DNA of 64,000 nt, taken from Mobula birostris. Its lineage: Eukaryota. The stretch lies in assembly GCF_030028105.1 (NCBI RefSeq), contig NC_092374.1, positions 66,474,948 to 66,538,947 of the forward strand, written 5' to 3'. Below are positions 1 through 57,317 of the stretch, in pieces. Within the stretch, counting starts at the first letter, position 1, and each line of letters begins with the position of its first letter. Both the position numbers and the translations under genes were made by a program. A model generated the notes under the pieces. It was not told the origin of the DNA. It was given only the letters and a program-made list of their open reading frames with translations, and did not search any database.

Positions 1-262
1 CCTCTGGGCCACTCTCCTCTCCTATCAGATTCCTTCTTCTTCAGCCCTTGACCTTTCCCACCCAACTGGCGTCACCTATTGCCTTCCAGCTAGCCACCGT
101 CCCCTCCCCCTACCTTTTTATTCTAGCATCTTTCCCCCTTCCTTCTCAGTCCTGAAGAAGAGTCTCAGCACAAAATGTTGACTACTTGCTGCCTGACCTG
201 CTGAGTTCATCCAGCCATTTTGTGTGTGTTGCTTTGATTTCCAGCATCTGCAGACTTCCTCT
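1..262 (+). mobile_element. Penelope-like element 3' tail fragment with decayed hammerhead motif (147-184)
   Basis: Pyrimidine-rich tract, then cagtcctgaagaagagtctcagcacaaaatgttgac...gcctgacctgctgagttc...tgtgtgtgttgc, homologous to the tail of the PLE at 9822-11536. Confidence 0.75.
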
Positions 263-1104
263 TTAGCTGAGAACCCCGTTCCTTTTGAAGATTCTATCAG
301 CATGTTTCAATTGATTAAGACTGTGAGTGGACAGAAATAACCTTACTTAGATTGCTCATGGAAATGATTAGACCATAGAATGCAAAGCCTTGTAATTCAG
401 TCTCCTCTTATTCCTGTAACCAGATTATTAGCTTAGGGTATCATCTATTTTCACACTTCTGGCAATTTGCATTGAGTGAGGGGTTTCGAGTGTAAACTCC
501 ATCTAACATGGTGACTCTATACAGAAATAATACCATTCAGTATGTCACCCATTGGAAAGAGAAAAAGAGAGAAAAAAAAGAGAGTTGGTGATAATTAAAA
601 AAAAGTTGAGTATGGAATTCACTGAATTGCGGCATTGTTATGGCACAAGGCGAGGGCATTTGACTCATTGTCTCTGCTGGCTTCCTGCAAATTATTCCAG
701 TGACACCCACTATCATATTCTCTGCACTTATTCCTGAAAATAATTTACCCTTAGTGTCTCTTCGATTTAATTCCGAAAGCCCAGCCTAACTCTACTTTCA
801 CATCATGGAGAGGGAAAATCACCAATTGGTGGAAAAGCTTTTTCCCTCACATTCACTCCCTATTGATGGCCTATAACTTCAATCTTGAGTTGCCTGGTCA
901 TCAAAGTATCTGAAAATGATCAAACTTTCTCTGCTTACCCTATCTAAAAATTAGATTAGGTTAGCTTATTTGTCACATGTATATCAAAACATACAGTGAA
1001 ATGCACTGTTTGTGTCAACGACCAGCCCAGTCTGAGGATGTGCTGGAGGCAGTCCACAAGTGTCACCAGGTTTCCAGGTGACAACATAACATACCCTCAG
1101 CTTA

Positions 1105-1270
1105 TTAGTCCTTACTAACCCATATGTCTTTGTAATGTGGGAGGAAACCAGAGCACCTGGAGGAGACCTGCATGGTCATGGGGAGAACATACAAACTCTT
1201 TACAGATAATGGCAGAGGTTGGAACCTAGTCACTGATGCTGTAAGGAGTTACGCTGGCTGCTACATTACC
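1105..1270 (-). mobile_element. V-SINE-like tRNA-derived SINE, degenerate
   Basis: Reverse complement of the V-domain core (tgtgggaggaaaccagagcacctggagga...ggggagaacatacaaact); similar to other copies in the window. Confidence 0.6.
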
Positions 1271-1703
1271 TTAACTACACTCATCATAATCTGCATTAAT
1301 CTAACAAATTTTCTATCAATCTTTCTTTACACTAAAAAGAACTTGCCCAGCTTCTCCAGTCTAACATTAGAATTGAAATCCCACACCCCTGAAATAATTC
1401 TAGTAAAATCATCTCTAAGACCTTTACATCCTTCCTAAATAGACACTGAATGTGGTGTAACGAGTGTTTTATAAAATGTTTTTGTACTGTGGACCTCTTT
1501 TACTCATGACTATGTTTTGCAAAGATATATGCACATTTCTTCAAAGGTTTCTGCACACCTTTAACATGGTGAAATATAGTCTGAATCATTTTCTTCCCCA
1601 AGGGTAAAGTTTGTGCAATTATAATTTGTAAAAATCCTATATGAATCTTCCATTATAAACACGGTGACTAGAACATATAATGACTGGCAAAGAGGCTGAG
1701 CAA

Positions 1704-1883
1704 GCAGCAGTGCCACAGTAGTGTAGCAGTCACCGCGCTGCTGATACAACTCAGGGCCCTCCGGAGTTCGGAGTTTAATTCCAGCACTGCCTGGAAGCAG
1801 TTTGTATGTTCTCCCCGTGAACCACATGGGTGCTCTGGATTTCTCCCACAGTCTAAGGACGTACATGTTATTAGGTTAATGTA
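1704..1883 (+). mobile_element. V-SINE-like tRNA-derived SINE, interrupted by the PLE insertion at 1884
   Basis: tRNA-like head followed by gtttgtatgttctccccgtg...tttctcccacagtctaaggacgtac...taggttaat. Confidence 0.65.
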
Positions 1884-1975
1884 AACACAAAGTAATCTGC
1901 AGATGCTGGGGTCAAAACAACACTCACAACACGCTGGAGGAACTCAGCGGGTCGGGCAGCATCTGTGGAAATGAA

Positions 1976-2013
1976 CAGTCAACATTTCGGGCCGGAACCC
2001 TTCGTCAGGACTG
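1976..2013 (-). ncRNA. Putative minimal type-I hammerhead ribozyme, sense to the grin3a pre-mRNA
   Basis: Minus strand reads CAGTC CTGACGA A GGGT-TCCG-GCCC GAAA TG TT GACTG: helix I CAGTC/GACTG, CUGANGA and GAAA core boxes, helix II, UH site. Confidence 0.75.
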
Positions 2014-2494
2014 AAGAGGGAGGGGGCAGAGGCCCTATAAAGAAGGTGGGGGGAGGGTGGGAAGGAGAAGGCTGGTAGGTTCCAGGTGAAAAACCAGTAA
2101 GGGGAAAGATAAAGGGCGGGGGAGGGGAAGCAGGGAGGTAATAGGCAGGAAAGGTGAAGAAGAAATAAGGGAAAGCACAATGGGTAGTAGAAAGAGCAAC
2201 ACCTCATATACCATCTGGGTAGTCTCCAGCCCCTTGGTATGAACACTGAATTCTCCATCTTCCGGTAATTCCCTCCCCCTCCCTTCCCCCATCCCAGTGT
2301 CACTTTGCCCCCTCCCCCAGCTGCCTATCACTTTCCTCATGGTTCCGCTTCCTTCTACTACCCATTGTGCTTTCCCTTATTTCTTCTTCACCTTTCCTAC
2401 CTATTACCTCCCTGCTTCCCCTCCCCCACCCTTTATCTTTCCCCTTACTGGTTTTTCACCTGGAACCTTCCCACCCTCCTCCCACCTTCTTTAT

Positions 2495-2532
2495 CAGTCC
2501 TGACGAAGGGTTCCGGCCCGAAACGTTGTCTG
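2495..2532 (+). ncRNA. Putative minimal type-I hammerhead ribozyme
   Basis: CAGTC CTGACGA A GGGT-TCCG-GCCC GAAA CG TT GTCTG; core intact, palindromic ACGT helix III, one mismatch in helix I. Confidence 0.75.
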
Positions 2533-2610
2533 ATCATTTCCACGGATGCTGCCGACCTGCTGAGTTCCTCCAGCGTGTAGTAGGTTAATGTAGCGGTTAG
2601 CTGAAAACAA

Positions 2611-2920
2611 GGCACGTGGCCAAGTGGTTAAGGCATTTGACTAGCGATCTGAAGGTCGTGAGTTCGAGCCCCAGTCGAGGCAACGTGTTGTGTCCTTAAG
2701 CAAGGCACTTAATCACACAGTGCTCTGTGACGACACTGGTGCCAAGGTGTATGGCTCCTAATGCCCTTCCCTTGGACAACATTGGTGTCATGGAGAGGAG
2801 AGACTTGCAGCATGGGCAGCTGCTGGTCTTCCATACAACCCTGCCCAGGCCTGTGCCCTGGAGAGTGAAGACTTTCCAGGCGCAGATCCATGGTCTCGCA
2901 AGACTAACGGATGCCTTTAA
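2611..2920 (+). mobile_element. Full-length tRNA-derived SINE with RTE-type 3' tail
   Basis: Pol III A box TGGCCAAGTGG and B box GTTCGAGCC. 14-bp TSD TTAGCTGAAAACAA (2597-2610, 2921-2934). Tail shared with the RTE fragment at 31723-31926. Confidence 0.9.
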
Positions 2921-3670: not shown

Positions 3671-3821
3671 AGGTGAGTGGAAGAACCTGGAGAAGGAGTA
3701 GCTGATGAAGTATGGAGGGAATAAAGAATAGTATGGGGTTAGCATAAATGGGAGCTTGAAAATTAGCACAGACTGTGCTGAATGGGCACTTTCTATGACT
3801 CCAAAAACACGCACATTTGTG

Positions 3822-4012
3822 AACAACACACACGTAATGTTGGATGAACTCAGCAGGCCAGGTACCATGTATGGAGGCCAGTTCTGATGAAGGGTCTTGG
3901 CCTGATATGTCAACTGGTTATTTTGCTCCATAGGTGCTGCCTGACCTGCTGAGTTCCTCTAGCATTTGTGTGTGTTGCTCAAGATTTCCAGCATTAGCAG
4001 AAACTCATGTCT
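3822..4012 (+). mobile_element. Miniature fold-back PLE derivative with central hammerhead-like motif (3879-3916)
   Basis: Arms ~3822-3876 and ~3926-3977 are imperfect inverted repeats of the PLE tail. Centre reads CAGTT CTGATGA A GGGT-CTTG-GCCT GATA TG TC AACTG. Confidence 0.75.
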
Positions 4013-4212: not shown

Positions 4213-4548
<336 letters not shown>

Positions 4549-4554
4549 TCAACA

Positions 4555-9030: not shown

Positions 9031-9847
9031 CATATGAGGAGGCATTCAGACCATCTGGTCTACGTTGTTTCCCAGGTGAGCCATCCCATTAATTAGGTCC
9101 TAAGACCATAAGGTGTAGGAGCAGAATCAGGCCAGGGCCCATCATGTCTGCTCCATCATTTGATCAGGGCTGATTATTTTTTTGCAACGCCATTATTCTA
9201 CCTTCTCCCTGTTACCAAGAATCTATCAATCTCTATCTTAAGTGCACACTGTGACGTGACCTCCACAGCCCTTCTTGGCATCAAATTCCACAGATCTACC
9301 ACCCTCTGGTGGAAGAAATTCCTTCTCATCTCAGTTCTAAAGGAATGCCCCTTTATTCTGGGACAGTGGCCTCAGATTCTAGGCTCTCCTGCTAATGGAA
9401 ACACCCTCTGAGCTTTCGCTCTCTCCAGGCCTTTCAGTTTCCTTCCTCCGTTACTTCCTTGTACCTTTGCAACATATTCTCTCCCACTGAGTTATAGATC
9501 AATACAGCGCTCTTCAGCTCTTCAGCTCAGCCTGTCTCCCTGACCAGGGTGCCCACTGAACAGGTCACAATTTCCTGCGTTCAGCCATATCTCAGTGAGC
9601 TCTGCCCCTCCATGTACTTCTCCAAGCCCTCCTTAAAGGATACTGCTGTGTCTGTCTCATTCACTTCCTTTGGCATCTTGTTTCACCATCTGCATGATAA
9701 AGTTGTCCCTCAGGTCCCTTTTAAATCTTTCCCCTCTCAACTAAAACCAATGCTCCATTGTTTTGGACTCTTCAGCCATGAAAAGACTGTTAGTGTCCAC
9801 CGTATCTAAGCCTCTCATAATAAGATCTTAAAGCTCTACGCTTCTTT

Positions 9848-11143
9848 TTGGATTCCAGACCTAATCAGTTCCCCTCTACCACCACGCTGCTCCGTCTAGC
9901 GGAATTAGTCCTTACTCTTAATAATTTCTCCTTTGGCTCCTCCCACTTCCTCCAAACTAAAGGTGTAGCTATGGGCACCCGTATGGGTCCTAGCTATGCC
10001 TGCCTTTTTGTTGGGTTTGTGGAACAATCTATGTTCCGTGCCTATTCTGGTATCTGTCCCCCACTTTTCCTTCGCTACATCGATGACTACATTGGCGCTG
10101 CTTCCTGCACGCATGCAGAACTCGTTGACTTTATTAACTTTGCCTCCAACTTTCACTCTGCCCTCAAGTTTACCTGGTCCATTTCCGACACCTCCCTCCC
10201 CTTTCTAGATCTTTCTGTCTCTGTCTCTGGAGACAGCTTATCCACTGACGTCTACTATAAGCCTACTGACTCTCACAGCTATCTGGACTATTCCTCTTCT
10301 CACCCTGGCTCTTGCAAAAACGCCATCCCCTTCTCGCAATTCCTCCATCTCCGCCGCATCTGCTCTCAGGATGAGGCTTTTCATTCTAGGACGAGGGAGA
10401 TGTCTTCCTTTTTTAAAGAAAGGGGCTTCCCTTCCTCCACTATCAACTCTGCTCTTAAACGCATCTCCACCATTTCACGTACATCTGCTCTCACTCCATC
10501 CTCTCGCCACCCCACTAGGAATAGGGCTCCCCTGGTCCTCACCTACCACCCCACCAGCCTCCGGGTCCAACAAATTATTCTCCGTAACTTCTACCACCTC
10601 CAACGGGATCCCACCACTAAACACATCTTTCCCTCCCCCCCTCTCTCTGCATTCCGCAGGGATCGCTCCCTACGCAATTCCCTTGTCCATTCGTCCCCCC
10701 CATCCCTCCCTACTGATCTCCCTCCTGGCACTTATCCGTGTAAGCGGAACAAGTGCTACACATGCCCTTACACTTCCTCCCTTACCACCATTCAGGGCCC
10801 CAAACAGTCCTTCCAGGTGAGGCGACACTTCACCTGTGAGTCGACTGGGGAGATATACTGCGTCCGGTGCTCCCGATGTGGCCTTTTATATATTGGCGAG
10901 ACCCGACGCAGACTGGGAGACCGCTTTGCTGAACATCTACGCTCTGTCCGCCAGAGAAAGCAGGATCTCCCAGTGGCCACACATTTTAATTCCACATCCC
11001 ATTCCCATTCTGACATGTCCATCCACGGCCTCCTCTACTGTAAAGATGAAGCCACACTCAGGTTGGAGGAACAACACCTTATATTCCGTCTGGGTAGCCT
11101 CCAACCTGATGGCATGAACATCGACTTCTCTAACTTCCGCTAA
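9848..11143 (+). CDS. Penelope-like reverse transcriptase + GIY-YIG endonuclease, N-terminally truncated, uninterrupted 431 codons
   Basis: GVAMGTRMGPSYA, RYIDD, FLDL and YKPT RT motifs; CKRNKCYTC cysteine cluster in the linker; EIYCVRCSRCGLLYIGETRRRLGDRFAEH nuclease motif. Confidence 0.9.
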   Translation: MDSRPNQFPSTTTLLRLAELVLTLNNFSFGSSHFLQTKGVAMGTRMGPSYACLFVGFVEQSMFRAYSGICPPLFLRYIDDYIGAASCTHAELVDFINFASNFHSALKFTWSISDTSLPFLDLSVSVSGDSLSTDVYYKPTDSHSYLDYSSSHPGSCKNAIPFSQFLHLRRICSQDEAFHSRTREMSSFFKERGFPSSTINSALKRISTISRTSALTPSSRHPTRNRAPLVLTYHPTSLRVQQIILRNFYHLQRDPTTKHIFPSPPLSAFRRDRSLRNSLVHSSPPSLPTDLPPGTYPCKRNKCYTCPYTSSLTTIQGPKQSFQVRRHFTCESTGEIYCVRCSRCGLLYIGETRRRLGDRFAEHLRSVRQRKQDLPVATHFNSTSHSHSDMSIHGLLYCKDEATLRLEEQHLIFRLGSLQPDGMNIDFSNFR

Positions 11144-11437
11144 GGCCCCACCTCCCCCTCGTACCCCATCTGTTACTCATTTTTATGCACACATTCTTTC
11201 TCTCACTCTCCTTTTTCTCCCTCTGTCCCTCTGAATATACCTCTTGCCCATCCTCTGGGTTCCCCCCGCCCCTTGTCTTTCTTCCCGGACCTCCTGTCCC
11301 ATGATCCTCTCGTATCCCTTTTGCCTATCACCTGCCCAGCTCTTGGCTCCATCCCTCCCCCTCCTGTCTTCTCCTTTCATTTTGGATCTCCCCCTCCCCC
11401 TCCAACTTTCAAATCCCTTACTCACTCTTCCTTCAGT

Positions 11438-11475
11438 TAGTCCTGACGAAGGGTCTCGGCCTGAAGCATCGACTG
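11438..11475 (+). ncRNA. Hammerhead ribozyme motif of the PLE tail, mutated (GAAA>GAAG, CG>CA)
   Basis: TAGTC CTGACGA A GGGT-CTCG-GCCT GAAG CA TC GACTG. Confidence 0.6.
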
Positions 11476-13008
11476 CACCTCTTCCTACAGATGCTGCCTG
11501 GCCTGCTGCGTTCACCAGCAACTTTGATGTGTGTTGCTCTCATAATTTTAAACACTTCCATAATGTAACCCTTCATTCTCCTATGGTCCAAGCAATAAAG
11601 AACCTATGCTGGCCAACTAGGTCCCTCTTAAGAGATAATGGTGTTCTATAACTCAGGCTCTCTAGTCCTGGCAACATCCTTGTAAATCTTTTCTGCTCTC
11701 TTTCCAGTTTAACCACATCAATTGCTGACCTTGGCTTATTTTATCATGTGCCTCCAAGTTCCTCGAAACCTCTTCCTTAATAATGGATTCTAACATCTTC
11801 CCAATCACTGAAGTCAGACTAACTGGCCTGTAATTTCCTATCTTCTGATCCCTCCTTTCTCACAGAATGCAGTGACATTTGCAATTTTCGCATCTCTGGA
11901 ATCATTCCAGAATCTGATGATTGTTGAAAGATCATTACTCATGCCCCTACAATCTCTTCAGCTACCTCTATCAGAACTCGGGGGTGTAGTCCTGAATGGT
12001 CATGCAGCATGCTCGGAAAGACAGCAAGGAAAGTATTTAACACAACCCTGGAACTGTGAAGCAATTTCTTCTGTAGTCCTGTAAGTCAGGAAACTTCACT
12101 TTTGGCTACATTTACAGGAAATTCACCCAACTGTAGCTCTGGGTCAAGGAATTGGTGCTAGATCTGGAATTACTCAGGATCACTCTGGAATGCGAGGACT
12201 TTGTAGATGAGGCTTTTACTGGGGTGCTCACACCCAAGGTAATACATTCAGACAGGTGTATGGTTACCAGGAAAAGTAAGGGGAATAGGCAGTCAGTGCA
12301 GGGTTCTCCTGTGGTTATTCCACTCAGGAACAATTATACCTCTTTGGATACCACTGGGGTGGATGTCCGATCAGGACACAGCAACAGCAGCCAGGTCAGT
12401 GACATTATGGGCAGCCCTGAGGCTCAGCAGGGAAAGGTAAAAGTAAAAGGGAGAGGAACAGTGATAGGGGACTCCATAGTTAGGGAACAGGCAGGAGCTT
12501 CTTCAGCCATGAAAGAGACAGCTGGATGATGTGTTGTCTTCTAGGTGCCGGGGTCGAGGATGTCTCAGAGTGGCTGCAGAGATGGTTCAAGGTGAGGATG
12601 GGCAGCCAGATATCATGGTTCACATTGGCACCAACGACATAGGCAGAAAGGGAGAAAGCCTGTGCAGTGAGCATAGGGAGTTAGGAAAGAGGCTGAAAAA
12701 CTGGTCTTTGAAGCTAGTAATCTCTGGATTACTCCCATTGCACATGTTAATCAGGGTAGGAATACAAGTATAGAACAGATGATTGAATGACTGAGAAAAT
12801 GGTTTCAGGTTCTTGGATCACTGGAACTTATACTGGAGCAGGGTGGCCTGTACAAGAGAGATGGGTTGCACTTTAACTGGAGGGCGAGTCAGTATCTTGG
12901 CCAGGAGGTTCACTATGGCTACTCGGAAGAGTTTCAACTAGCTTAGTAAGGTGATGGGACCCAGAGCACCAGATCAGAAAGTGGAGGGACTGAGGGGAAA
13001 ATATATAT

Positions 13009-15453
13009 CATAGAAACATAGACATAGAAAATAGGTGCAGGAGTAGGCCATTCGGCCCTTCGAGCCTGCACCGCCATTTATTATGATCATGGCTGATCAT
13101 CCAACTCAGAACCCTGCACCAGCCTTCCCTCCATACCCTCTGATCCGCCCAGCCACAAGGGCCATATCTAGCTCCCTCTTAAATATAGCCAATGAACTGG
13201 CCTCAACTGTTTCCTGTGGCAGAGAATTCCACAGATTCACCACTCTCTGTGTGAAGAAGTTTTTCCTAATCTCAGTCCTAAAAGGCTTCGCCTTTATCCT
13301 CAAACTGTGACGCCTCGTTCTGGACTTCCCCAACATCTGGAACAATCTTCCTGTATCTAGCCTGTCCAATCCCTTTAGGATTTTATACGTTTCAATCAGA
13401 TCCTCCCTCAATCTTCTAAATTCCAACAAGTACAAGCCTAGTTCATCCAGTCTTTCTTCATATGAAAGTCCTGCCATCCCAGGAATCAATCTGGTGAACC
13501 TTCTTTGTACTCCCTCTGTGGCAAGGATGTCTTTCCTCAGATTAGGGGACCAAAACCGCACACAATATTCCAGGTGTGGTCTCACCAAGGCCTTGTACAA
13601 CTGCAGTAGTACCTCCCTGCTCCTGTACTCGAATCCTCTTGCTATAAGTGCCAGCATACCATTTGCCTTTTTCACCACCTGCTGTACCTGCATGCCCACT
13701 TTCAATGACTGGTGTATAATGACACCCAGGTCTCGTTGCACCTCCCCTTTTCCTAATCGGCCACCATTCAGATAATAATCTGTTTTCCTATTTTTGCCAC
13801 CAAAGTGGATAACTTCACATTTATCCACATTAAATTGCATCTGCCATGAATTTGCCCACTCATCCAACCTATCCAAGTCACCCTGCATCCTCTTAGCAGC
13901 CTCCTCACAGCTAACACTGCCGCCTAGCTTCGTGTCATCCACAAACTTGGAGATGCTGCATTTAATTCCCTCATCCAAGTCATTAATATATATTGTAAAC
14001 AACTAGGGTCCCAGCACTGAGCCTTGCGGTACCCCACTAGTCACTGCCTGCCATTCTGAAAAGGTCCCATTTATTCCCACTCTTTGCTTCCTGTCTGCTA
14101 ACCAATTCTCTATCCACATCAATACCTTACCCCCCATACCATGTGCTTTAAGTTTGCACACTAATCTCCTGTGTGGGACCTTGTCAAAAGCTTTTTGAAA
14201 ATCCAAATATACCACATCCACTGGTTCTCCCCTATCCACTCTACTAGTTACACCCTCAAAAAATTCTATGAGATTCGTCAGACATGATTTTCCTTTCACA
14301 AATCCATGCTGACTTTGTCCGATCATTTCACCGCTTTCCAAATGTGCTGTGATCACATCTTTGATAACTGACTCCAGCAGTTTCCCCACCACCGACGTTA
14401 GGCTAACCGGTTTATAATTCCCCGGTTTCTCTCTCCCTCCTTTTTTAAAAAGTGGGGTTACATTAGCCACCCTCCAATCCTCAGGAACTAGTCCAGAATC
14501 TAACGAGTTTTGAAAAATTATCACTAATGCATCCACTATTTCTTGGGCTACTTCCTTAAGCACTCTGGGATGCAGACCATCTGGCCCTGGGAATTTATCT
14601 GCCTTTAATCCCTTCAACTTACCTAACACCACTTCCCTACTAACATGTATTTCGCTCAGTTCCTCCATCTCACTGGACCCTCTGTCCCCTACTATTTCTG
14701 GAAGATTATTTATGTCCTCCTTAGTGAAGACAGAACCAAAGTAATTATTCAATTGGTCTGCCATGTCCTTGCTCCCCATAATCAATTCACATGTTTCTGT
14801 CTGTAGGGGACCTATATTTGTCTTTACCAGTCTTTTCCTTTTTACATATCTATAAAAGCTTTTACAGTCAGTTTTTATGTTCCCTGCCAGTTTTCTCTCA
14901 TAATCTTTTTTCCCCTTCCTAATTAAGCCCTTTGTCCTCCTCTGCTGAACTCTGAATTTCTCCCAGTCCTCAGGTGAGCCACTTTTTCTGGCTAATTTGT
15001 ATGTTTTTTCTTTGGAATTGATACTATTCCTAATTTCTCTTGTCAGCCACGGGTGCACTACCTTCCTTGATTTATTCTTTTGCCAAACTGGGATGAACAA
15101 TTGTTGTAGTTCATCCATGCAATCTTTAAATGCTTGCCATTGCATATCCACTGCCAATCCTTTAAGTGTCATTTGCCAGTCTATCTTAGCTAATTCACGT
15201 CTCATACCTTCAAAGTTGCCCCTCTTTAAGTTCAGAACCTTTTTTCTGAATTAACTATGTCACTCTCCATCTTAATGAGGAATTCCACCATATTATGGTC
15301 ACTCTTACCCAAGGGGCCTCTCATGACAAGATTGCTAATGAACTCTTCCTCATTGCTCAAAACCCAGCCTAGAATAGTCTGCTCTCTAGTTGGTTCCTCG
15401 ACATGTTGGTTCAAAAAACCATCCCGCATACATTCCAAGAAATCCTCTTCCTC
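13009..15453 (-). mobile_element. Young 5'-truncated CR1 LINE (ORF2: end of APE, RT, 3' UTR)
   Basis: ORFs 15232-15453, 14003-15205 and 13106-14002 carry SDHN, PGPDG, YLDFQKAFDKV, GVPQGSVLGP, FVDDTK and RPHLEYC. 3' tail is (TTTCTATG)n-like. One stop and one 1-bp frameshift. Confidence 0.95.
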
Positions 15454-16119
15454 ATGACCAACAGGAACAGAAAGGAGCAAGGTAATAGACATAATGAGAT
15501 GGATGTGTTGATGTGCATATATTTTAATTCTCAGAGTCTAAAGGGTACTTAGAGCAGGTATCAGAATGGAACTATGATTTTGAGGCAATAAAAAAAGACT
15601 TGGTTGAGAGAAGAAAAGGAATGGATACCTTATTTTCCAGGGTTTCGATGGAAAAGTCAGAGGAAGTAAAAGGGGTGGGTGAACAGCTACGCTATTAATC
15701 AGGAAAAATATCACAGCTGCATTCAGAGAGGACATAATGGAGTGCTCATCCGCTGAATCTAGATGGGTAAAACTTAAAAATAAGAAGAGTGCAATCATCC
15801 TGATGGGATTGTACTTAAGAACCCCCTCCTCATTAGCCACTGGGACATTAATGAACAGATATACAGGCAGGTTAGGGAAGGGTATATTGTAGTGAGTGAC
15901 TTCAATTGCCCTGATATAGACTGGTTTAGACAAGGCAAAATTTGATAGGTGCATCAAAGAGGTTTTCTTAAACTGGTATGTAGATAGTCAAACAAGAGGA
16001 AGAATAATGTTGTTGGGTAATGAGTCTAGTCTGGTGACTGACCCTTCAGTGGGACAACACTTAGGGAACAGTGATCTCAACTCTTTAAGTTTCAAGATAG
16101 CTATAGTAAAGCTATATCT

Positions 16120-17896: not shown

Positions 17897-18036
17897 CAGC
17901 AACACACACAAAAAGATGGTCTCAGCCCAAAAAGTCAACTGTACTTTTTTCCATAGATACTGCCGGGCCTGCTGAGTTCCTCCAGCATTTTGTGTGTGTT
18001 GCTTGGATTTCCAGCATCTGCAGATTTTCTCTTGTT
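17897..18036 (+). mobile_element. Short PLE-tail derivative with small inverted end
   Basis: gcaacacacacaaaa is inverted against ttttgtgtgtgttgc; contains the 3' half of the hammerhead motif. Confidence 0.65.
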
Positions 18037-21500: not shown

Positions 21501-21624
21501 TAAATGAACTGGAACTTCCCACCATAATCCCACAAAAGCATTTTAATACAAGAACAGTAAACAGTACTGGTCATTAGAAATGCAGGGGCAGGCTGTCGTC
21601 CACACCCCTGCCCAGAACGTCACA
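18572..21624 (-). mobile_element. Internally deleted Ty3/gypsy LTR retrotransposon
   Basis: LTRs at 18572-18919 and 21272-21624 (TG...CA), 4-bp TSD ATAT, PBS and PPT present. Protease ALVDTGST, integrase Zn-finger region (RLRERSYWPGYRQDV..C..C) and C-terminal DVVYR. No RT/RNase H recognisable. Confidence 0.93.
21253..21270 (-). promoter_or_regulatory. Primer binding site complementary to the tRNA-Leu 3' end
   Basis: TGGTGTCAGGAGTGGGAT one base inside the 5' LTR. Confidence 0.9.
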
Positions 21625-23072: not shown

Positions 23073-23246
<174 letters not shown>

Positions 23247-26826: not shown

Positions 26827-29798
26827 ATTCAGCTCTTTATCACTGGAATAAGGGGGTTTGGAGCCAAACGGTACAAGTGCAGCCTTGACATGAGTAAGCA
26901 GGGCAGGATTGGCAACAACACATTCTATTGCTCTGGTGATTGACAAACCAGGAAAGAGGTAATTAGTGAGATTGAAATTGTTTTGCACTTTGGCAGAAGA
27001 ACATTCCCAGGTATTGTTCCAGATCAGATGAAGGGTCATGACCCAAAACATTGACTGTCCATATCCCTCAATAGATGCTCTCTATTCCTTCAATATTTTG
27101 TTTGTTACTTTTGGATATTGTTGGTTAGATGCTAGTGTTGCAACTGTATCCAAATAGCTTGGCGAGAGATGCAACAAGTCCTGGAACATATCTTCTATAG
27201 CACAGCTGAGGTGTTGTCTGGCCCCATCGCTTTGATTGTATTTGATGCTCTCAGCCATTTCTGGATATCACATGGAATGAATCAAATTGGTCTATGGCTG
27301 GCTTCTCTCACTGTAGGGATCCCAGAAGGAATGTGAACAGGATCATCCACTTGGTTTTTCTAGTGGAATGCGGCTACGAAGGTGCCAGCCTTGCTTTTGG
27401 CACTCGCATGTTGGGCCCCATCCTTGATAATGAAGGGGATGCTCCTGAATCCTCATGCAGTTAACTATTCAATTATTCATCACCTTCACAATGGTAGCAC
27501 TGCAGAACTGATTTATCTCTGTGAGATTGTTTATCTTTGTCTACTGCATACTGTTTTCTCAGTTTGGCATACACACAGTACTTTATTGCAGCTTCACTAG
27601 ATAGGCACTTTAATTTGGGTACACATGGTGTTGCTCCCAGTATACCCTTCTGCATTCTTCACTGAACCATGGTTAATGCTCTAGCTTGATAGTAATGGTC
27701 GAGGAATGTGACAGCATATGAAGAAATAGGATGGATTCTTCTAAGATAAATTATGATCTTTCTTACAGCTTTCCACTGCACTGCACTGAAAGTACTCGAT
27801 GCATTTAACAATGTACAGACACAAAATTGAGCGGGTTTTGAAAATACAAAGCAGCAGGTTGTCAGCAATGTGACAGCTCCCAGTGACTTTATCTTGATGT
27901 GCTGTATTAACATCTCACTAATTTTTAGGACAAAGCATAGGTTATTTTATCTTTCATGTGTACAGAGTCTGAGATTAATGTGCATTCACTAACTACCTGA
28001 TCTCCTAGGTTGCACAGGAAAATTAAGCAAAATAGATGTTGCTCTGAGCTCAGCAGTCATATTAGATTAATAAGCATCTTCATCAATCTTCGACCTTGAA
28101 CCATCTGCTGTTAATAATTTTAGTCTCGATGCTTTGGGGGAATTGACGACACCACACTGCAGACATAACTTAGGAGTAATGCACACAAACAACTATTAAC
28201 CATGGGATTCTTAAAGGTATTAGGGCATATTTTGGAGTTATAGTATATAACAAATACTAAGTTCAACAGCAGCCAGTCTTCAGACCTGGATATGGATTGT
28301 AGATGTAATTTAAAATGCAGCTCTGAACAATGGTCTTCCTGGAATTGCATTTTAGGGTTGATTACAAACAAAGAAACACTCTATTTGACCTCAGGTGCCT
28401 GCATATGTGTGAATGTAGCCCAAAGTAAGTGGGAATTAGCATTTATTTTGTGTGTCTTCTGAAGTGTGGGTGTAAAGATGGAGCTTTTTGAAAATTATAT
28501 GTAATTCAAAGGAAGCATTGTAAATACATTGTAACTATAGAATTGTCCTGCTGTTTCCTTTAATTTTTAGCATATAAAGAATGTCATGCAATATTGAGTT
28601 AGGCAGGTGGCTTCTTCTAAGAGTGTCTCAAACATGATGCTTGCTGCTCATTTTGCTAAATAAAGATTTCCATATCCACTAGCTTTAGTGCCTCTGCAGT
28701 GACTTTGTTCACAGTCACAACAAAGGAATCAGTGGGAATAATATTTTCTATATTTCGACCAGCAGATATGTCATTATAATACTTTCAAGTGGCCTTGTTG
28801 TAGCTACAGGATTCAGTAGAAGCTCAATTGACAGCACCAAATGAGAATCTGTGGAGGAAGGTAAAAATTGTTCCCATGACAGGGTTTCTAAGACAAGAAG
28901 GTATAGATTTTATATCTAGAAGGTTTGGAGGGTATTTGAGTGGGGGATTTATTTACATATTAAGAGTGATTGGAATCTGGAATGCATAGCCTGAGGAAGT
29001 AGAAACTTTCACAGCTGACCTCTAGTTTAGTCTATGTGAAGTTGCTCCTGAGTACTCCTAGATATAATTTATCTAGATAAGCACTTGAATTGTCAAGGCA
29101 CAGAAGGCTGTGGTCAAATAATGTGGATAAATGGGATTGATTATATGGATGAAACAGCTGGCATATACTGTATATGTAGTAGGTAAAAGGGCCTATTTTT
29201 GTGGAGTGTGACAATAATTCTATTACTCTATGACCCCTTATGGAGGTAGAGAATGCAGCTGGGATCTGAGGGAAGAGCAGACATTCCTGATGGAACTTTA
29301 TAATAAGCTATTTCTATCCCATTCATCATCAGCCATCGACTCATGACTCACTCATGCTGAAGAGCCTGTTCCTGTGCTGTACTGTTCCCTCTTCACCTTA
29401 GTTTCTAGTTCAATATTGCACTTGATGTAAAAAATCTCAACAATGCCTTCCATGGCCTTCATTCCCATCTCTACCACCCCCAGGATATCTGACCTTTCCA
29501 CCTCTGCTCTCTTCTACATGCTCCTACAGGATCCATTGCTCCATCATTCCTGCCTGTGCTCCAGTTGCCAGACTTGCAGACTCTGAAATTCCCTTTCCCA
29601 CGTACGATTCTCTCCCTCTTCAAGACATCTCTTAAATTCTGCCAAGCCTTCAATCTTGTTTGAGATCTATTAATATATTTTTCCAATTCAGGATCAGCTT
29701 TTTCAGGTATTACTATTGTAAAGCATCTTGAAAATGTTCTATGAGATTATAGGCACTTTATTAATGCAAGATGTTATGTTTATTCATTGAGTTCCATT

Positions 29799-32671: not shown

Positions 32672-33060
32672 TCACAAGCATGAGAAAATCTGTCGATGCT
32701 GGAAATCCAAAACAACACACACAAAATGCTGGAGGAACTCATCAGGTCTGGCAGCATCCATGGAAAGAAGTAAACAGTTGACATTTCAGGCTGAGACCCT
32801 TCTTCAGGACTGAGAGGGAAGTGGGGGAGATACCTAAATTAAAAGGAAAGAGGCTAGCTAGAAGGTGATAGGTGAAGCTAGGTGGGTGGGAAAGGGCTGG
32901 AAAATAAATAATAAAATAGGAGAGGAGAAAGGGAAGGAGGAGGGATCCTAGGGGTAAGTAATGGGCAGATGAGAAGAAGTAAAAGGTCAAAGAGGGGAAT
33001 AGAGGGCAGGATGTATACATGGGGAGAGTATAGGGGAGCAGAGAAGAAGGTAGCAAGATA
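32672..33060 (-). mobile_element. PLE 3' tail with hammerhead motif (32775-32812), sense to grin3a
   Basis: Minus strand reads CAGTC CTGAAGA A GGGT-CTCA-GCCT GAAA TG TC AACTG, plus the conserved downstream tail. Confidence 0.8.
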
Positions 33061-36517: not shown

Positions 36518-37114
36518 TTCTCACCAAATGAAGTGCCGAGGAAGACTGAAATCATTGAGGCAGGTGCCAAGGATGAGCGAGTGTTCAGTGCCACCTACCG
36601 GCCTTTCACGGGCTGCTGGAGGAGGGTGTCTGCGTGTAATGGCTTCTCTCACCTTCTCGCTCACTGCTCCCAAGGGAAGGTCTCATATTCAAATGACCTC
36701 TCTCGCTCTCCCCCTCAGTGATGTTGGACGATGGTGCTGGAGTAAGGTTTAATCAATGCATTTTGTGGATTGGACTCAGTACTATGTGTTTCTAGGTTTT
36801 CTAGTTGCTTCTGTTTTTGTTGCTAGTTTGAGCGATTTTGAATTGGGGTGGCCTGAGATAAGGAACTCTTAGCTGAACTGAAACATGCCTTTTGATTTTG
36901 TGTCTTATAAACTGTGTTTTTGCTTGTGTTTTTTTATTGCTAATTGCAGATTTGTTTTTTACTCATGCAGTGGGGAGAGATGTTGTTGGTTTGATGCTTT
37001 TTTCTCTTTAAACAAGTTTCTTTGTTTCGTGGTTGTCTGTGGGGAAGGCGAAGCTCAGGGTTGTATGCTGCACACATACTTTAGTAATAGATGTACTTTG
37101 AATCCTTTGAAGAA

Positions 37115-37863
37115 CTGGAGAACGTTAGCATTAATGGTAAGGCTCTTGACATTGTGGAGGATCAGAGGGATCTTGGGGTCCGAGTCCATAGGACACTCAA
37201 AGCTGCTATGCAGATTGACTCTATTGTTAAGAAGGCATACGGTGCATTGGCCTTCGTCAATTGCAGGATTGACTTTAAGAGCCGAGAGGTAATGTTGCAG
37301 CTATCTAGAACCCTGGTCATACCCCACTTGGAGTACTGTGCTCAATTCTGGTTGCCTCACTACAGGAAGGATGGGGAAACCATAGGAAGGGTGCAGAGGA
37401 GATTTACAAGGATGTTTCCTGGATTGGGGAGCATACCTTATGAGAATAGGTTGAGTGAACTCGGCCTTTTCTCCTTGGAGTGACAGAGGCTGAGAGGTGA
37501 TCTAATAGAGGTATACAAGACAATGAGGGGCATTGATTGTGCAAATAGCCAGAGGCTTTCCCCCAGGACTGAAATGGCTAGCATGAGAGGGCATAGTTTT
37601 AAGGTGCTTGGAAGTAGGTACAGAGGAGATGTCGGGGTAAGTTCTTTTACGCAGAGAGTGGTGAGTGCGTGGAATGGGCTGCCGGTGGTGGCGGCGGAGG
37701 CAGAAACGATAGGGTCTTATAAGAGACTCCTAGATGGCTACATGGAGCTTAGAAAAATAGAGGGTTATGGGTAAAGCCTAGGTAGCTCTAAAGTAGGGAC
37801 ATGTTTGGCACAGCTTTGTGGGCCGAAGGGCCTGTATTGTGCTGAAGATTTTCTATGTTTCTA
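37115..37863 (+). mobile_element. CR1 3' fragment
   Basis: RDLGVRVH, PHLEYCAQFWLPHYRKD, FTQRVVSAWN; tail ttctatgtttcta. Confidence 0.9.
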
Positions 37864-39361: not shown

Positions 39362-40790
39362 TAGACCATAAGAGATTGGAGCAGAATTACACCATTCAGT
39401 CCATTGAGTCTGTTCTGTCATTTCATCATGGCTGACCTATTTCCCTCTCAGCCCCATTCTCCTGCCTTCTCCGTTTAGCATTTGGCACCCTTACTACTAA
39501 TGAAACTATCACCTATGCTTTGAATATACTTGACTTCCACCACTTTCTGTGGCAATGAACTCCACAATTTCACAACCCTCTGGCTGAAGCAACTTCTCTT
39601 CATCTCTGTTCTAAATGCATATCCCTGCATTCTGAGGCTATGCTTTCTGGTCCTCGACTCCCCCACCAAAGGAAACATCTTCTTTACATCCACTCTATCT
39701 GGGCCTTTCAATATTCGATGGATTTCAATGAGATATCCCTTATTTTTCTAAATTATAGTGAGTACAGGCCCGCAGACTTCAATCACGGCTCATACAATAA
39801 CCCCTTCATTTGCGGAATCATTCTTGTGAACCTCTTCTGAATACACTCCAATGTCAGCAAATTCTTCCTTAAATAAGGTCCCCAAACTGCTCTATGAGCC
39901 TCACTACAATAAATCTTGCTTTTATATTTTAGTCCTCCTGAAATGAATGCTGACATTGCATTCCACTTCCTCACCACTGATTCCACCTGCAAATTAACTT
40001 TTAGGGAATCCTGCACAAGGACTTCCAGATCCCTTAGCAGCTTAGATTTTTGAATTTTCTCCTCTTTTCGAAAATAGTCTATGCTTTTATTCCTTCTACC
40101 AAAGTGCATGATCATACATTTTCTGATACTGTATTCCATCTGCCATCTCTTTGCGGGTTCTCCCAAATCTGTCTAAGTTCTTCTACAGCCTCTCCACTTC
40201 CTCAACACTACCTGCCCTTCTAGCTGTCTTCGTACTTTCCAAAAACTTGGCCACAAAGCTATTAATTTCATTATCCATATCAATGACATACAACCTAAAA
40301 AGCGGTCCCAACACAAACCGCTCTGGAACACAACTGGTCACTTGCAGCCAACCTGAAAAGGATCCTTTATTCCCACACTTTGCCTCTTGCCAATCATTCA
40401 ATCCTCTATCCATGCCAGTAACTTTTCTGTGATACTTTAGGCTCTTATATTTAGCAACCTCATGTATCAAAAGCCTTCCGAAAATCCAAGTATACAGCAT
40501 CAACCAATTCTCCTTTTTCTATCCTGCTTGTGATTAATTCAAAGAATTCCAACAGACTTGTCAAGCAAGATTTGCCTTTAAGGAAATCATGCTGACTTTG
40601 GCCAATTCTGTCATGTGCCTACAAGCATCTTAAATTCAACAATTAACAATTGATTCCAACATCTTCCCAACCACTGAGGTCAGGCTAACTGGCCTATAAT
40701 TTCCTTTTATCTGCCTCCCTTCTTCTTGAAGAGTGGAGTGACATTTGCAATTTTCCTGTCCTTCAGAACCATGCCAAAATCTACCGATTC
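39362..40790 (-). mobile_element. CR1 RT/3' relic
   Basis: WQMEYSIRKCMIMHFG, FSQRVVKLWSSLP; 3' end near 39362. Confidence 0.85.
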
Positions 40791-40821
40791 TTTATATATC
40801 TGTAAAGAAAACCTTTGGTGT

Positions 40822-41585
40822 CATTATCTAAATGGAGAGAAGATTCAAACATCAGAGGTGTAGAGGGACTTAGGAGTCCTGATGCAAGTCTTCCAGAAGG
40901 TTAATCTACAGGTTGAGTCTGTGGTAAAGAAGGCAAATGCAATGTTGGCATTTATTTCAAGGGGAATAGAATATAAAAGCAATGAGATAATGCTGAGCCT
41001 TTATAATACACTAGTCAGGCTGCAGTTGGAGTATTGTCAACAGTTTTGGGTCTCATATCTCAGAAATGATGTGTTGTCATTGGAGAGAATCCAGAGGAGC
41101 TTCATGAGGATGGTTCTGGGAATTAAGGGGTTAACATATGAGGACCATTTGGCAGCTTCGGGCCTGTACTCACTGGAATTTGGAAGAATGCTTGGGAATC
41201 TCATTGAAACCTACTGAATGTTGAAAAGACGAGATAGGGTGGACGTGGAGAGGATGTTTCCTACGTTGGGGGTATCCAGAACAAGAGGGCACAGCCTCAA
41301 AATTGAGGGATGACCTTTTAGAACAGAGGTAAGGAGGAATGCTTTTAGACAGAGAGTAGTCAATCTGTGGAATGCTCTGCCACAGCCTACAGTGGAGGTC
41401 AAGTCCATGTGTATATTTAGAGCAGAAATTGATTGTTTCCTAATTAGTCAGGGTATCAAAGGATCTGGCGAAAAGGCAGGTATGTGGGGTTGAGTGGGAT
41501 CCAGGATCAGCCATGATGGCATAGCTTAGCCAACTCAATGGGCTGAATGGCCTAATTCTGCTCCTATGTCTTATGGATATATGAT
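40822..41585 (+). mobile_element. CR1 3' fragment
   Basis: VVKKANAMLAFISRG, LEYCQQFW; 3' UTR ending ctgctcctatgtcttatg. Confidence 0.88.
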
Positions 41586-50129: not shown

Positions 50130-51583
<1,454 letters not shown>

Positions 51584-54499: not shown

Positions 54500-55038
54500 A
54501 TTTCAAAGTTGAAATCTTCAAAGTAAATTTGCTATCAAAATACATATATTTCACCTTATACAACCCTGAGATTCAATCACAGTAAATATTAGAAACACAG
54601 TAGAATCAATGAAAGACCACATTTAACAGGACAGCCAAATAACCAATGTGCAAAAGACAACAAGCTGTGCAAATAGGAAAAAAATAGTGAGAATGATGAA
54701 TAACCAATAAATATCAAGAACATGATACGAAGAGTCCTTCAAAGTGAGTCCATAGATTGTGGGAACAGTTTCATGATGGGGTGTATGTAGTTGAGTCCCC
54801 TGTGGTTCAAGTCTCTGATGGCTGAAGGGTAATGCCTGTTTCTGAACCTGACTGTGTGTGTCCTGAAGATCCTGTACCTTCTTTCTGATGGCAGCAGCGA
54901 GAAGGGAGCATGGCTTGGATAGTGGGGGTTCTTGATGATGGATGCTGCTTTCCTGTGACAACGCTCTGTGTAGATGTGCTCAATGATGGGAAGGTCTTTA
55001 CGCCTCATGGACTGGGCTGTATCCATTATTTTTTTCAA
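54500..55038 (-). mobile_element. Rex1/Babar-like LINE 3' end
   Basis: DLPIIEHIYTERCHRKAASIIKNPHYPSHAPFSLLPSERRYR. Confidence 0.8.
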
Positions 55039-55307
55039 GTTAATATAAGTAACCCGTAATTACTGAAGGAAATTAACTAGCTTAGAATTAGGGTCAACGA
55101 CGAATGATCAGAGGTTATCTTCAATTACATATCCACTTGCTTGCAACTTGCAGGATTTTTGCACAACCCGTGGTAATGAGGAAGCTACCATCACCAGGGG
55201 GAACATGAATGTGAATATGAAGAGGACAAGCTGCAGAAGGGCTCCTCAACCAATCAAATTGGAAAATTCTTGAGACATAAACCAGGTAATGTAACTTGGA
55301 ATATTTA

Positions 55308-55559
55308 TATAGGCATCCGTTAGTCTCGTGAGACCATGGATTTGCACCTTGGAAGGTTTCCAGGGTGCAGGCTTGAGCAAGCTTGCAAGTTTCCTATTGC
55401 CCATGCTGCAAATCTCCCCTCTCCACGCCACTGACTTTGTCCAAGGGAAGGGCACTAGGGCCGATACAGCTTGGTACCGGTGTCATCGCAGAGCAATGTG
55501 TGGTTAAGTGCCTTGCTCAAGGACACAACACGCTGCCTCAGCTGAGGCTCGAACTAGCG
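55308..55559 (-). mobile_element. 5'-truncated copy of the tRNA-RTE SINE
   Basis: Homologous to 2611-2920; imperfect TSD ACTT(G/A)GAATATTTA; B box retained. Confidence 0.85.
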
Positions 55560-55799
55560 ACTTAGAATATTTAATGCATAGAAAATAAGAGATTTGAAGT
55601 AACCAAAAGAATTGACTTAGCATTTCCAAGAATAATAAAAACATGCTGAAATTAAGTTTTATATCAATGAACATAAGTTTTTAAATCCAAAGATGCTGTT
55701 TGGCAGTAAACCTTATCAATCTATTATAATTGAATGCATTGGGTCTAAATTTCTTCCAGCACATTTTGTTGGTATTTAATGGATAAGTAAAGTCAGAGA

Positions 55800-56142
55800 T
55801 TCAAACAGCATGGAAATGGGCCTTTTGCCCAATTGGTCAGTGCTGACTATGATTCCATCTAAGCTTGTCCCAGTTGCCTGTGTTTGGCCCATATCCATTT
55901 AAAGTTTTCCTATCCATGTACTTTTGAATGTTGTTAATATACTTGCCTCGACCATTTCCTTTGGCAGCTCATTCCATACACTGGCCACCCTCTGAGTGAA
56001 AAAGTTATCCCTCAGGTTCCTATTAAATCTCTGCCCCCTCACCTTCAACCTATGCCCTCTAGTTTTTGATTTCTCAACACTGGGGAAAAGGTTGTGTGCA
56101 TTTACATGATCTATGCCTCTCCTGAACTTGCACACCTCTATG
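55800..56142 (-). mobile_element. CR1 3' fragment
   Basis: TRGHRLKVRG...FFTQRVASVWNELP. Confidence 0.85.
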
Positions 56143-56319
56143 TACTACAATTCCGCAGAGTAGAATATCTTGTAATATTGAATATTCTGGTGATAAAGCT
56201 GTGCACTGAAGTTCAGTAAGTACCAGGGTAACTCAGCAAGCATTTTTCCTGAGTTCTATACTTAATTCTGATTGGTTCCTTAAGGTTGTCATAGCCAGGG
56301 GAGGTAAACTACCTATAAA

Positions 56320-57224
56320 ATGCTCCCAATGGCTTTGACTTCCCTTGTCAGCCATGGTTGTACTATTTTACCATTTGGGTATTTCTTCATTTTTGTTTTA
56401 CATATGTCCTGCATCTTCCTCATTTTTCCTAGAAATGCATGCCATTGCTGCTCTGCTGACATTCCTGCCAGCAGGTCCTGCTATTTATTTTGCCCAACTC
56501 CTCTCTGATGCCACTGTAATTTCTCTTACTCCACTGAAATACTGCTACATCAGACTTTTCTTTCTCTCTATCAAATTTCAAGTTCAACTCAGTCATATTG
56601 TGATCACTGGTTCCTAAGGGTTAAGCTCCTTAATCATCTCTGGTTCATTACATAACACCCAATCCAGTACAGCTGATCCCCTAGTAGGCTCAATGACAAA
56701 CTGCTCTAAAAAGCTATCTCTTAGGCATTCAACAAACTCACTCTCTTGAGATCCATTACCAACCTGATTTTCCCAATTGACCTGCATGTTAAAATTTCCC
56801 ATAACTGCCATAATATTGCCCTTTTGACTCACCTTTTCTATTGCCTGTTGTAACCTGGGGTCCACCTTCGAGCCACTGTTGGGAGGCCTGTGTATAACTG
56901 CCATCAACGTCCTTTTACCCTTGCAGTTTCCTAACTCAACCCACAAGGATTCAACATCTTCTGATCCTACGTCACATCTTTCTACTGATTTGATGCCACT
57001 CTTTACCAGTAGAGCCACACCACCCATTCTGCCTACCTTCCTATCCCTCCTATATAACGTGTAACCTTGGACATTCAGCTCCCAACTACAACCATCCTTC
57101 AGCCACGATTCAGTGATGGCCACAACATCATACCTGGCAATTTGTAATAATGCAACAAGATCATCCATTTTATTTCTTATACTCCACGAATTTAGATACA
57201 ACACCTTGAGTACCGTATTTGCTA
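56320..57224 (-). mobile_element. CR1 ORF2 APE endonuclease relic
   Basis: LKVLYLNSWSIRNK, YDVVAITESWL, RRDR...GGVALLVK, HRPPNS, MGNFN. Confidence 0.88.
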
Positions 57225-57317
57225 TCGTCAGGACCCGGCCCGAAACGTCGACTGTACCTCTTCCCATAGATGCTGCCTGGCCTGCTGCGTTCACCAGCAT
57301 TTTTTGTGTGTGTTGCT
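57225..57317 (+). mobile_element. Very short PLE-tail insertion, broken and inverted inside the hammerhead
   Basis: tcgtcaggac (reverse complement of gtcctgacga) joined to ccggcccgaaacgtcgactg...tgtgtgttgc. Confidence 0.7.

What the first reader, a model, noticed from the sequence alone, without database searches (positions are those of the whole stretch)
147..57255. Dispersed family of minimal hammerhead ribozymes carried by Penelope tails inside an NMDA-receptor gene
Seen: a 38-nt motif recurs at 147-184(+), 1976-2013(-), 2495-2532(+), 3879-3916(+), 11438-11475(+), 27020-27057(+) and 32775-32812(-), with partial copies at ~17915-17941 and 57225-57254. The consensus CAGTC-CTGANGA-A-GGGT-N4-GCCC-GAAA-CG-TC-GACTG folds as a type-I hammerhead: a 5-bp helix I, both core boxes, a 4-bp helix II with a variable loop (TCCG/CTCG/CTTG/CATG), and a helix III reduced to the palindrome ACGT. 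Pairing-compatible variants exist (CAGTT/AACTG; GGGT/ACCC). Established: PLE terminal repeats carry minimal hammerheads, and palindromic helix III allows dimeric double-hammerhead cleavage. Inference: about 9 copies in 64 kb would imply a very large genome-wide ribozyme-bearing repeat family, mostly non-autonomous.
Basis: partly seen in the sequence, partly recalled or inferred. Interest (0 to 1): 0.8.

Follow-up and report, generated by a model that had tools for sequence, protein, structure and literature searches.

The report
Penelope hammerhead relics, a million copies
These repeats are worn-out end pieces of a hugely abundant Penelope-type jumping gene that carries a small hammerhead ribozyme motif of a kind already described, and its copies pile up starting at the motif's front edge rather than at its cutting site, which likely means the element is copied from uncut RNA that begins there.

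Summary
The motif is at all nine places, but only 3 of 9 keep the catalytic core and 1 passes a strict minimal-hammerhead descriptor. It lies 295 nt behind a Penelope-like RT/GIY-YIG frame with a Neptune-type Cys linker (9824-11143) and also heads the next 3.5-kb unit. Genome-wide: 50,201 intact motifs, 133,647 exact tail matches, about 0.97 million recognisable relics. This is the PLE minimal hammerhead of Cervera & De la Pena 2014; the scan met the same kind in other genomes. One detail I did not find in print: 5' ends of insertions cluster at the ribozyme's 5' edge (17 of 68 copies at risk end within 10 nt, 1.0-3.7 expected; genome counts agree) with no peak at the cut site. Best reading: the template RNA starts there and is reverse-transcribed uncut, short copies arising from initiation near its 5' end. 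Cleavage and the transcription start are untested.

The parts
9824..11143 (+). 5'-truncated Penelope-like ORF (439 aa open): RT motifs GVAMG and YIDD, Cys linker CX4CX2C (Neptune type), GIY-YIG endonuclease
   Evidence: (Pfam GIY-YIG E 8e-4, below the curated cut-off)
11144..11437 (+). pyrimidine-rich 3' UTR / pLTR between stop codon and ribozyme
   Evidence: same spacing in genome copies
11438..11475 (+). minimal hammerhead, subfamily A, A15.1 mutated
11476..11538 (+). tail ending at the first of two 3'-end clusters (about +65 from the cut site)
13..263 (+). old pLTR relic with motif at 147-184 (G12>A) and a deletion in the linker
1894..2195 (-). left arm of a head-to-head insertion, subfamily B; motif 1976-2013 is the only window copy passing the strict descriptor; sense to GRIN3A
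2194..2581 (+). right arm: ORF end, 3' UTR, motif 2495-2532 (core intact, one helix I mismatch), tail
3820..3876 (-). tail-only inverted arm
3879..4001 (+). short copy starting at the ribozyme's 5' edge (-33), A14 mutated
17918..18033 (+). short copy truncated inside helix II (about -19) plus tail
27020..27080 (+). old decayed motif, two core mutations
32675..32928 (-). pLTR relic, subfamily C; motif 32775-32812 has an intact core but the helix I pair next to the cut site is broken; sense to GRIN3A
   Evidence: E 0.007
57225..57320 (+). short subfamily A copy truncated at about -14, preceded by a 10-nt inverted piece of the motif's 5' end
50468..51583 (-). large exon of the host gene, GluN3A (GRIN3A); further exons near 23200 and 4430, same strand
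   Evidence: (best match GluN3A, E 2e-202)

Best explanation
The motif is a minimal type-I hammerhead at the junction of tandem units of a Neptune-type Penelope-like retrotransposon, and the window copies are truncated, mostly core-mutated insertions that were likely reverse-transcribed from uncut RNA beginning at the ribozyme's 5' edge. Shown: the 3.5-kb unit reads ribozyme - tail - 5' region - ORF - 3' UTR - ribozyme - tail; insertions end at two tail sites about 35 nt apart, carry 9-15 nt target duplications and often an inverted partner; their 5' ends cluster 25-34 nt upstream of the cut site (peak -32) and not at it. Inferred: the element's RNA starts at about A(-32) in an initiator-like context; the RT primes at nicked DNA and starts inside the tail; starting at the tail near the RNA's 5' end gives the 95-140 nt copies, starting at the downstream tail gives longer 5'-truncated ones; two cDNAs primed from both DNA strands give head-to-head pairs. 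The ribozyme is predicted to be silent as a monomer and to cut only as a dimer or with the element's protein (as in Anolis Poseidon), most likely trimming or resolving tandem transcripts and not making the template; after insertion five CpGs in 38 nt inactivate it quickly.
For: Position 295 nt behind the ORF stop in the window and 249-332 nt (stop to cut site) in 11 listed copies; tail runs on into the ORF's 5' region in near-full-length copies; two ribozymes 3,502 nt apart in one natural tandem. 3' ends of 71 young A copies: 31 at +64..+71, 26 at +95..+106, the PLE tail signature of PMC11167929 and PMC8557442. Target duplications of 8 nt or more in 19 of 30 loci against 0 of 30 controls, inverted partner in 16 of 30. 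5' ends: 17 of 68 copies at risk end in -34..-25; 1.04 expected from the upstream rate, 3.69 from the downstream rate; 3 at the cut site +/-2 against 2.44 expected. Genome-wide junction patterns: 1,789 at -32/-33 (about 70 of the 100 listed rows are subfamily A type, counted by eye), 135 at -39/-40 (A only), 383 at the cut site (A only, many explained by GAC microhomology). Nine of 20 near-full-length copies begin between -32 and +41, none between -33 and -52 (printed values 5 too high). CpG decay is lopsided where G is catalytic (N7-G8: TG 57, CA 2; 11.1-G12: TG 48, CA 18) and even elsewhere (15.2-16.2: TG 33, CA 30). PMC11167929 found uncut RNA to be the dominant substrate and cleavage to need the protein.
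Against: No cleavage or RNA 5'-end data. No clear cap-derived G before A(-32): first 100 rows C 33, T 28, G 23, A 16, by eye. No two-sided covariation in this genome; subfamily changes avoid the 11 core positions (0 of 11 against 5 of 27 elsewhere in the motif) but P = 0.29, the CpG asymmetry rests on two lineage events, one B sub-lineage breaks an outer helix I pair and most young A copies have G-U at 10.1-11.1 (32 of 43). The tail stem is as conserved as the core. In the energy model the double hammerhead (-16.7 kcal/mol) lies far above the best cofold (-34.1) and the monomer pairs the core with the cleavage triplet. Junctions are blurred by microhomology, some are clean fold-backs through helix I (L158, L159), arms of one insertion are not independent, and the pattern counts differ in flank letters and subfamily scope.
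Confidence: 0.6

Rival explanations
1. The 5'-edge cluster is made by the ribozyme's own structure: once the cDNA has copied both strands of helix I it folds back or the RT dissociates, so the RNA may start anywhere upstream.
For: Perfect fold-backs through helix I in L158 and L159; many cut-site rows are helix I or GAC microhomology joins; 21 of 39 short copies have an inverted partner; symmetrical joins around the palindrome at the cut site (L185).
Against: Most partners end elsewhere and both arms often stop at -26..-35 with filler letters between; non-inverted copies with target duplications also start at -32; the rate falls about tenfold just upstream of -33.
Confidence: 0.25
2. The short ribozyme-plus-tail copies are a self-propagating non-autonomous (SINE- or retrozyme-like) family with an internal promoter.
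For: Precise 5' start, two length classes (about 97-106 and 127-146 nt), target duplications, very high number.
Against: They carry the same subfamily letters as the autonomous element's own 5' end; among 223 near-intact copies held, 3 same-strand neighbours lie under 500 nt apart, so there are no retrozyme-like arrays; no shared foreign flank among 30 junction loci. Re-mobilisation of some short copies is not excluded.
Confidence: 0.15
3. The polypyrimidine tract and AG at -32/-31 are a 3' splice site (as in D. virilis Penelope, whose intron ends at helix I) and spliced RNA or a bound spliceosome sets the junction.
For: Sequence context; a donor-like GTAATT overlaps the stop codon in subfamilies B and C; PMC4209133 and PMC2377424 describe such an intron.
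Against: Only 15 genome-wide joins of ORF end to ribozyme, most explicable by CAG microhomology; subfamily A lacks that donor yet shows the cluster; no cluster where a branch point would lie (3 ends in -69..-45).
Confidence: 0.1
4. The copies are host-adopted ribozymes that regulate GRIN3A pre-mRNA.
For: The two listed copies that are sense to the gene both have intact cores, and one passes the descriptor.
Against: Window density is no higher than the genome's (11 in 64 kb against 179 in 730 kb); 7 of 9 listed copies are antisense; the intact sense copy has no same-strand partner and would pair with its inverted arm 450 nt away.
Confidence: 0.03

Closest known systems
Minimal hammerheads (min-HHR) in pLTRs of metazoan Penelope-like elements (Cervera & De la Pena 2014, PMC4209133; includes fish Xena, Poseidon, Neptune)
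   Same: Type I, 4-5 bp helix I, extra unpaired base before helix II, G10.1-C11.1, palindromic 15.2-16.2 with no helix III loop, place in the flanking repeat, mostly single dispersed copies from truncated elements, opposite-strand pairs 100-700 bp apart.
   Different: Helix II of 4 bp (7-8 in Schistosoma); low heterogeneity and no covariation within this genome; about 50,000-100,000 intact motifs against about 4,000 (coelacanth) and 9,000 (Xenopus) in that paper; most young copies have G-U at 10.1-11.1.
Poseidon of Anolis carolinensis (PAc; PMC11167929)
   Same: Tandem units, ribozyme at the pLTR-ORF junction, two tail end sites, insertions in both orientations, no sign that cut RNA is the template.
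   Different: Neptune-type Cys linker; the first in-frame ATG seen in natural copies lies roughly 145 nt behind the cut site (read), not inside helix II; the tail is GU-rich on the sense strand where PAc's is called AC-rich; the 5'-edge cluster is not in the passages read.
Non-LTR retrozymes of metazoans (PMC7229834; bioRxiv 10.64898/2026.07.22.740005)
   Same: Type I hammerhead, weak helix III, link to PLE pLTRs, copy numbers of the same order (126,247 motifs in axolotl).
   Different: Not in short tandem arrays; copies are collinear with an autonomous PLE; minimal, not canonical, motif.

Membership tests
PLE minimal hammerhead (Cervera 2014) | Core boxes CUGANGA and GAAA..UH joined by helices I and II, type I topology | tested here: met
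   50,201 exact genome matches, control 0; 19 descriptor hits in 730 kb, control 0; met in full by 1 of 9 window copies
PLE minimal hammerhead (Cervera 2014) | Unpaired base between A9 and 10.1; G10.1-C11.1; palindromic 15.2-16.2 | tested here: met
   A at the bulge in 101 of 105, G10.1 in 95 of 105; 11.1 is C or U (G-U in 32 of 43 young A copies); ACGT palindrome, CpG-decayed in old copies
PLE minimal hammerhead (Cervera 2014) | Located in the flanking repeats of an RT/GIY-YIG element | tested here: met
PLE minimal hammerhead (Cervera 2014) | Covariation among consensus families | tested here: not met
   within this one genome only; the family is young and nearly invariant, other species could not be compared
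PLE minimal hammerhead (Cervera 2014) | Self-cleavage as dimer or with protein | not testable with these tools
   bench assay needed; energy model disfavours the active fold
EN+ Penelope-like element | Single ORF with RT and C-terminal GIY-YIG endonuclease | tested here: met
   motifs at aa 47, 85, 343-358 of the window ORF; Pfam GIY-YIG weak
EN+ Penelope-like element | Partial tandems, inverted 5'-truncated partner, optional 30-40 nt tail | tested here: met
Neptune clade | CX2-5CxxC linker between RT and EN (PMC8557442, PMC3846280) | tested here: met
   CX4CX2C at aa 306-314
Neptune clade | Placement in an RT phylogeny (Neptune against Nematis) | not tested
   no reference RTs fetched
Non-LTR retrozyme | Short head-to-tail arrays each with a hammerhead | tested here: not met
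   3 same-strand neighbours under 500 nt among 223 near-intact copies held
Non-LTR retrozyme | Abundant circular RNA monomers | not testable with these tools
   only assembled contigs were on offer

The most novel reading that the evidence does not exclude
The million insertions record the element's template RNA: it starts at A(-32), so the hammerhead is the very 5' end of the mRNA; cut RNA is never copied; and internal initiation in the 5'-proximal tail turns one autonomous PLE into a factory for SINE-sized ribozyme copies, about 1% or more of them per kilobase class outnumbering the long ones, without any non-autonomous master. This would be in-genome evidence on what PLE hammerheads do not do and on where PLE transcripts begin.
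Probability: 0.4. Interest if true: 0.55.

Novelty: new member of a known kind. Interest (0 to 1): 0.33.

Why it matters
The motif kind is known, so the catch itself is ordinary. The role of PLE hammerheads is still open (PMC8557442 calls it unknown; PMC11167929 found cleavage dispensable in vitro). A family with about a million insertions gives base-level statistics on template ends: the cluster at the ribozyme's 5' edge and the lack of one at the cut site give a cheap, testable prediction of the transcript start and argue that cut RNA is not retrotransposed in vivo. The count of intact motifs is 5-10 times the vertebrate PLE counts in the 2014 paper.

Tried and rejected
Rfam scan: no hammerhead family hit at E<=5. 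Cap-derived G before -32: not seen clearly. Compensated subfamilies: 319 and 297 double changes, tallies of 30 stored loci each look random (helix I: AG 8, CG 6, GG 4, CT 4, others 8; helix II: AT 14, AA 7, others 9, AT being the double transition). An apparent shared pLTR boundary at -375 was an alignment artefact: 5 of the 6 copies re-examined there run on into the ORF. Spliced ORF-end/ribozyme joins: 15 only. The control at -21/-22 (1,457 hits) is confounded: about three quarters of the listed rows are G8 point mutants of untruncated copies, so it is not used as a count. First junction map was confounded for old subfamily C (no good upstream reference) and redone on A and B only. Sequencing runs: no RNA holder listed; four runs laid were contigs, which cannot show RNA ends. 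L082, with a doubly swapped helix I, is a single old copy, not shown to be a family. Protein homologue searches and structure prediction were not run. Literature searches gave no paper on this family or on 5' junction clustering at PLE ribozymes; subscription journals and Repbase are not covered.
Full report
OBSERVATION. All nine places hold the motif or its 3' part on the stated strand. A profile built from 27 natural genome copies finds 11 hits in the window and none in reversed controls. Scored position by position, the catalytic core is intact in 3 of 9 copies; four are core mutants and two are truncated inside the motif. A family-independent descriptor (CUGANGA, optional bulge, helix II of 3-8 bp, GAAA, UH, helix I of 4 bp or more) accepts only 1976-2013(-). 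The seven full copies fold no better than shuffles and Rfam reports no hammerhead.

THE CARRIER. An open frame at 9824-11143(+) has RT motifs, a CX4CX2C linker and a GIY-YIG domain; the motif at 11438 follows 295 nt after its stop. PMC8557442 and PMC3846280 (passages) give the Cys linker as the mark of Neptune (and Nematis) PLEs; no tree was built. Walking upstream with natural copies shows the tail running on into the element's 5' region and ORF, so the motif heads each unit as well as closing the previous one; a natural tandem has two motifs 3,502 nt apart. At least three subfamilies (A, B, C) differ in the loop, linker and UTR. The host gene is GRIN3A on the minus strand; 7 of 9 listed copies are antisense to it. 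The genome is 4.0 Gb; its repeats remind me of cartilaginous fishes (recall, not tested).

NUMBERS. Exact genome matches: 18,307 for a narrow motif, 50,201 for an intact motif with three helix I pairs, G-C or G-U at 10.1-11.1 and the ACGT palindrome, 133,647 for a 24-nt tail pattern; all controls 0. In 74 evenly spaced 10-kb stretches of large chromosomes (729,800 bases; 6 further requests fell on short contigs and failed) the profile gave 179 hits, 118 covering the core, control 0: about 0.97 million relics (bootstrap 0.80-1.14 million; both arms of inverted insertions count). The strict descriptor gave 19 hits, about 100,000 per genome. The window (1.7 per 10 kb) is not above the sample mean (2.4).

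CONSTRAINT. Double changes at one helix I pair and one helix II pair are rare (319, 297) and look random in the 30 stored loci of each. Subfamily-level changes fall on 5 of 27 non-core and 0 of 11 core positions (P = 0.29); three keep or do not need pairing (position 1, N7, loop 2), one turns G10.1-C11.1 into G-U, one breaks an outer helix I pair. At the two CpGs that include a catalytic G the lineages fixed C>T and not G>A, which fits selection but is two events. So identity as a hammerhead rests on the exact fit to the published min-HHR anatomy and its place in the pLTR, not on covariation here. The energy model puts the double hammerhead at -16.7 kcal/mol against -34.1 for the best cofold, and the monomer in an inactive fold, in line with the low activity in PMC4209133 and the need for protein in PMC11167929.

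ENDS OF THE INSERTIONS. 3' ends of 71 young A copies cluster at +64..+71 (31) and +95..+106 (26) from the cut site: the optional 30-40 nt PLE tail, which PMC11167929 ties to two internal RT start sites. For 5' ends I took 155 copies chosen by the tail alone (random stretches, the 30 loci, 40 stretches around further places of that list, and the window), dropped 66 of subfamily C for want of a reliable upstream reference, and mapped 89. Seventeen of 68 at risk end in -34..-25 (12 at -33..-31), against 1.04 expected from the upstream and 3.69 from the downstream rate; 3 end within 2 nt of the cut site, 2.44 expected, two of them one duplicated event. Arms of one insertion are not independent and microhomology blurs junctions by a few bases. 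Genome patterns that exclude the templated flank agree: 1,789 at -32/-33 (about 70% subfamily A by eye), 135 at -39/-40, 383 at the cut site; flank letters and scope differ between patterns, so the ratios (about 9 and 3) are rough. The control at -21/-22 was confounded. Of 30 loci, 19 have target duplications of 8-15 nt (control 0 of 30), 16 an inverted partner, 1 is not truncated, and none share a foreign flank. Of 20 copies that reach into the ORF start, 9 begin between -32 and +41, 3 stop at the anchor, 8 are partial tandems, none begins between -33 and -52 (values printed 5 too high).

MECHANISM. A rate that rises towards -32 and drops tenfold just beyond, in short and near-full-length copies alike, is what a template with a 5' end there would give. 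A(-32) lies in a YYANWYY initiator-like context (consensus recalled); PMC2377424 (passages) describes an internal, LINE-like promoter for D. virilis Penelope. I infer an RNA that starts at the ribozyme, RT initiation in the tail either near that 5' end (95-140 nt copies) or at the downstream tail (long copies), and priming from both DNA strands (head-to-head pairs), with cut RNA not used. Against: no clear cap G, some clean helix I fold-backs, no RNA data. Rivals: a structure-caused stop (0.25), a self-propagating short family (0.15), a splice-site effect (0.1; only 15 spliced-like joins), host regulation (0.03).

KNOWN AND NEW. PMC4209133 (parts 1-2 of 4 read; two supplementary files searched, file 1 could not be) describes this ribozyme kind in fish Neptune, Poseidon and Xena elements and as dispersed singles and opposite-strand pairs. 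PMC11167929 (passages and second half of the main text), PMC8557442, PMC3846280, PMC2377424, PMC7229834 (passages) and bioRxiv 10.64898/2026.07.22.740005 (first of five parts and passages; it sampled one chondrichthyan; its supplements were not seen and may list related repeats) cover architecture, tail, promoter and retrozymes. Six searches found no account of this family or of 5' ends clustering at a PLE ribozyme; the library lacks most subscription journals and Repbase. Earlier notes of this scan report the same kind in other genomes (unchecked AI notes, no support); none matched my junction words and none concern this genome.

VERDICT. A real, very abundant new member of a known kind; interest 0.33, carried by the copy number and the junction statistics.

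Noticed in passing
window 2615-2818 (+) and 55398-55561 (-): tRNA-like head (Rfam tRNA 24 bits, below threshold) and 84% similar second copy: probably a tRNA-derived SINE inserted just behind the PLE tail at 2581.
   Followed up: no
window 18584-21596: 248-nt direct repeats (87%) around decayed gag/protease/integrase-like frames on the minus strand: looks like an LTR retrotransposon relic (labels from recall).
   Followed up: no
window 13106-15537 (-), 37091-37483, 39366-41576, 56614-57330: RT and endonuclease fragments of LINE type (Pfam RVT_1, Exo_endo_phos); the short PLE copy at 57225 sits inside one of them; two LINE pieces at 39366-41576 are inverted.
   Followed up: partly
window 57408-57916: About 500-nt element with long inverted arms (84, 60 and 59 nt, 87-93%), MITE-like.
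   Followed up: no
tail, +19 to +100 behind the cut site (e.g. window 17942-18033): The tail is as conserved across subfamilies as the ribozyme core and can form a long hairpin closed by GAUGCUG/CAGCAUC; its two end clusters flank the 3' strand of that hairpin. Likely the protein-binding and RT-initiation element; it also holds a 16-codon upstream ORF in subfamily A.
   Followed up: partly
L003, L007, L021 (subfamily B): A sub-lineage carries an A-C mismatch in outer helix I, leaving 3 pairs next to the core.
   Followed up: partly
L007 and G000:C1:39626199-39626321: Rare 40-47 nt tandem repeats of the ribozyme motif itself, possible seeds of retrozyme-like arrays.
   Followed up: no
L286: A natural copy keeps a long open frame through RT into the linker; copies are 92-98% alike, so the family is young.
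   Followed up: no
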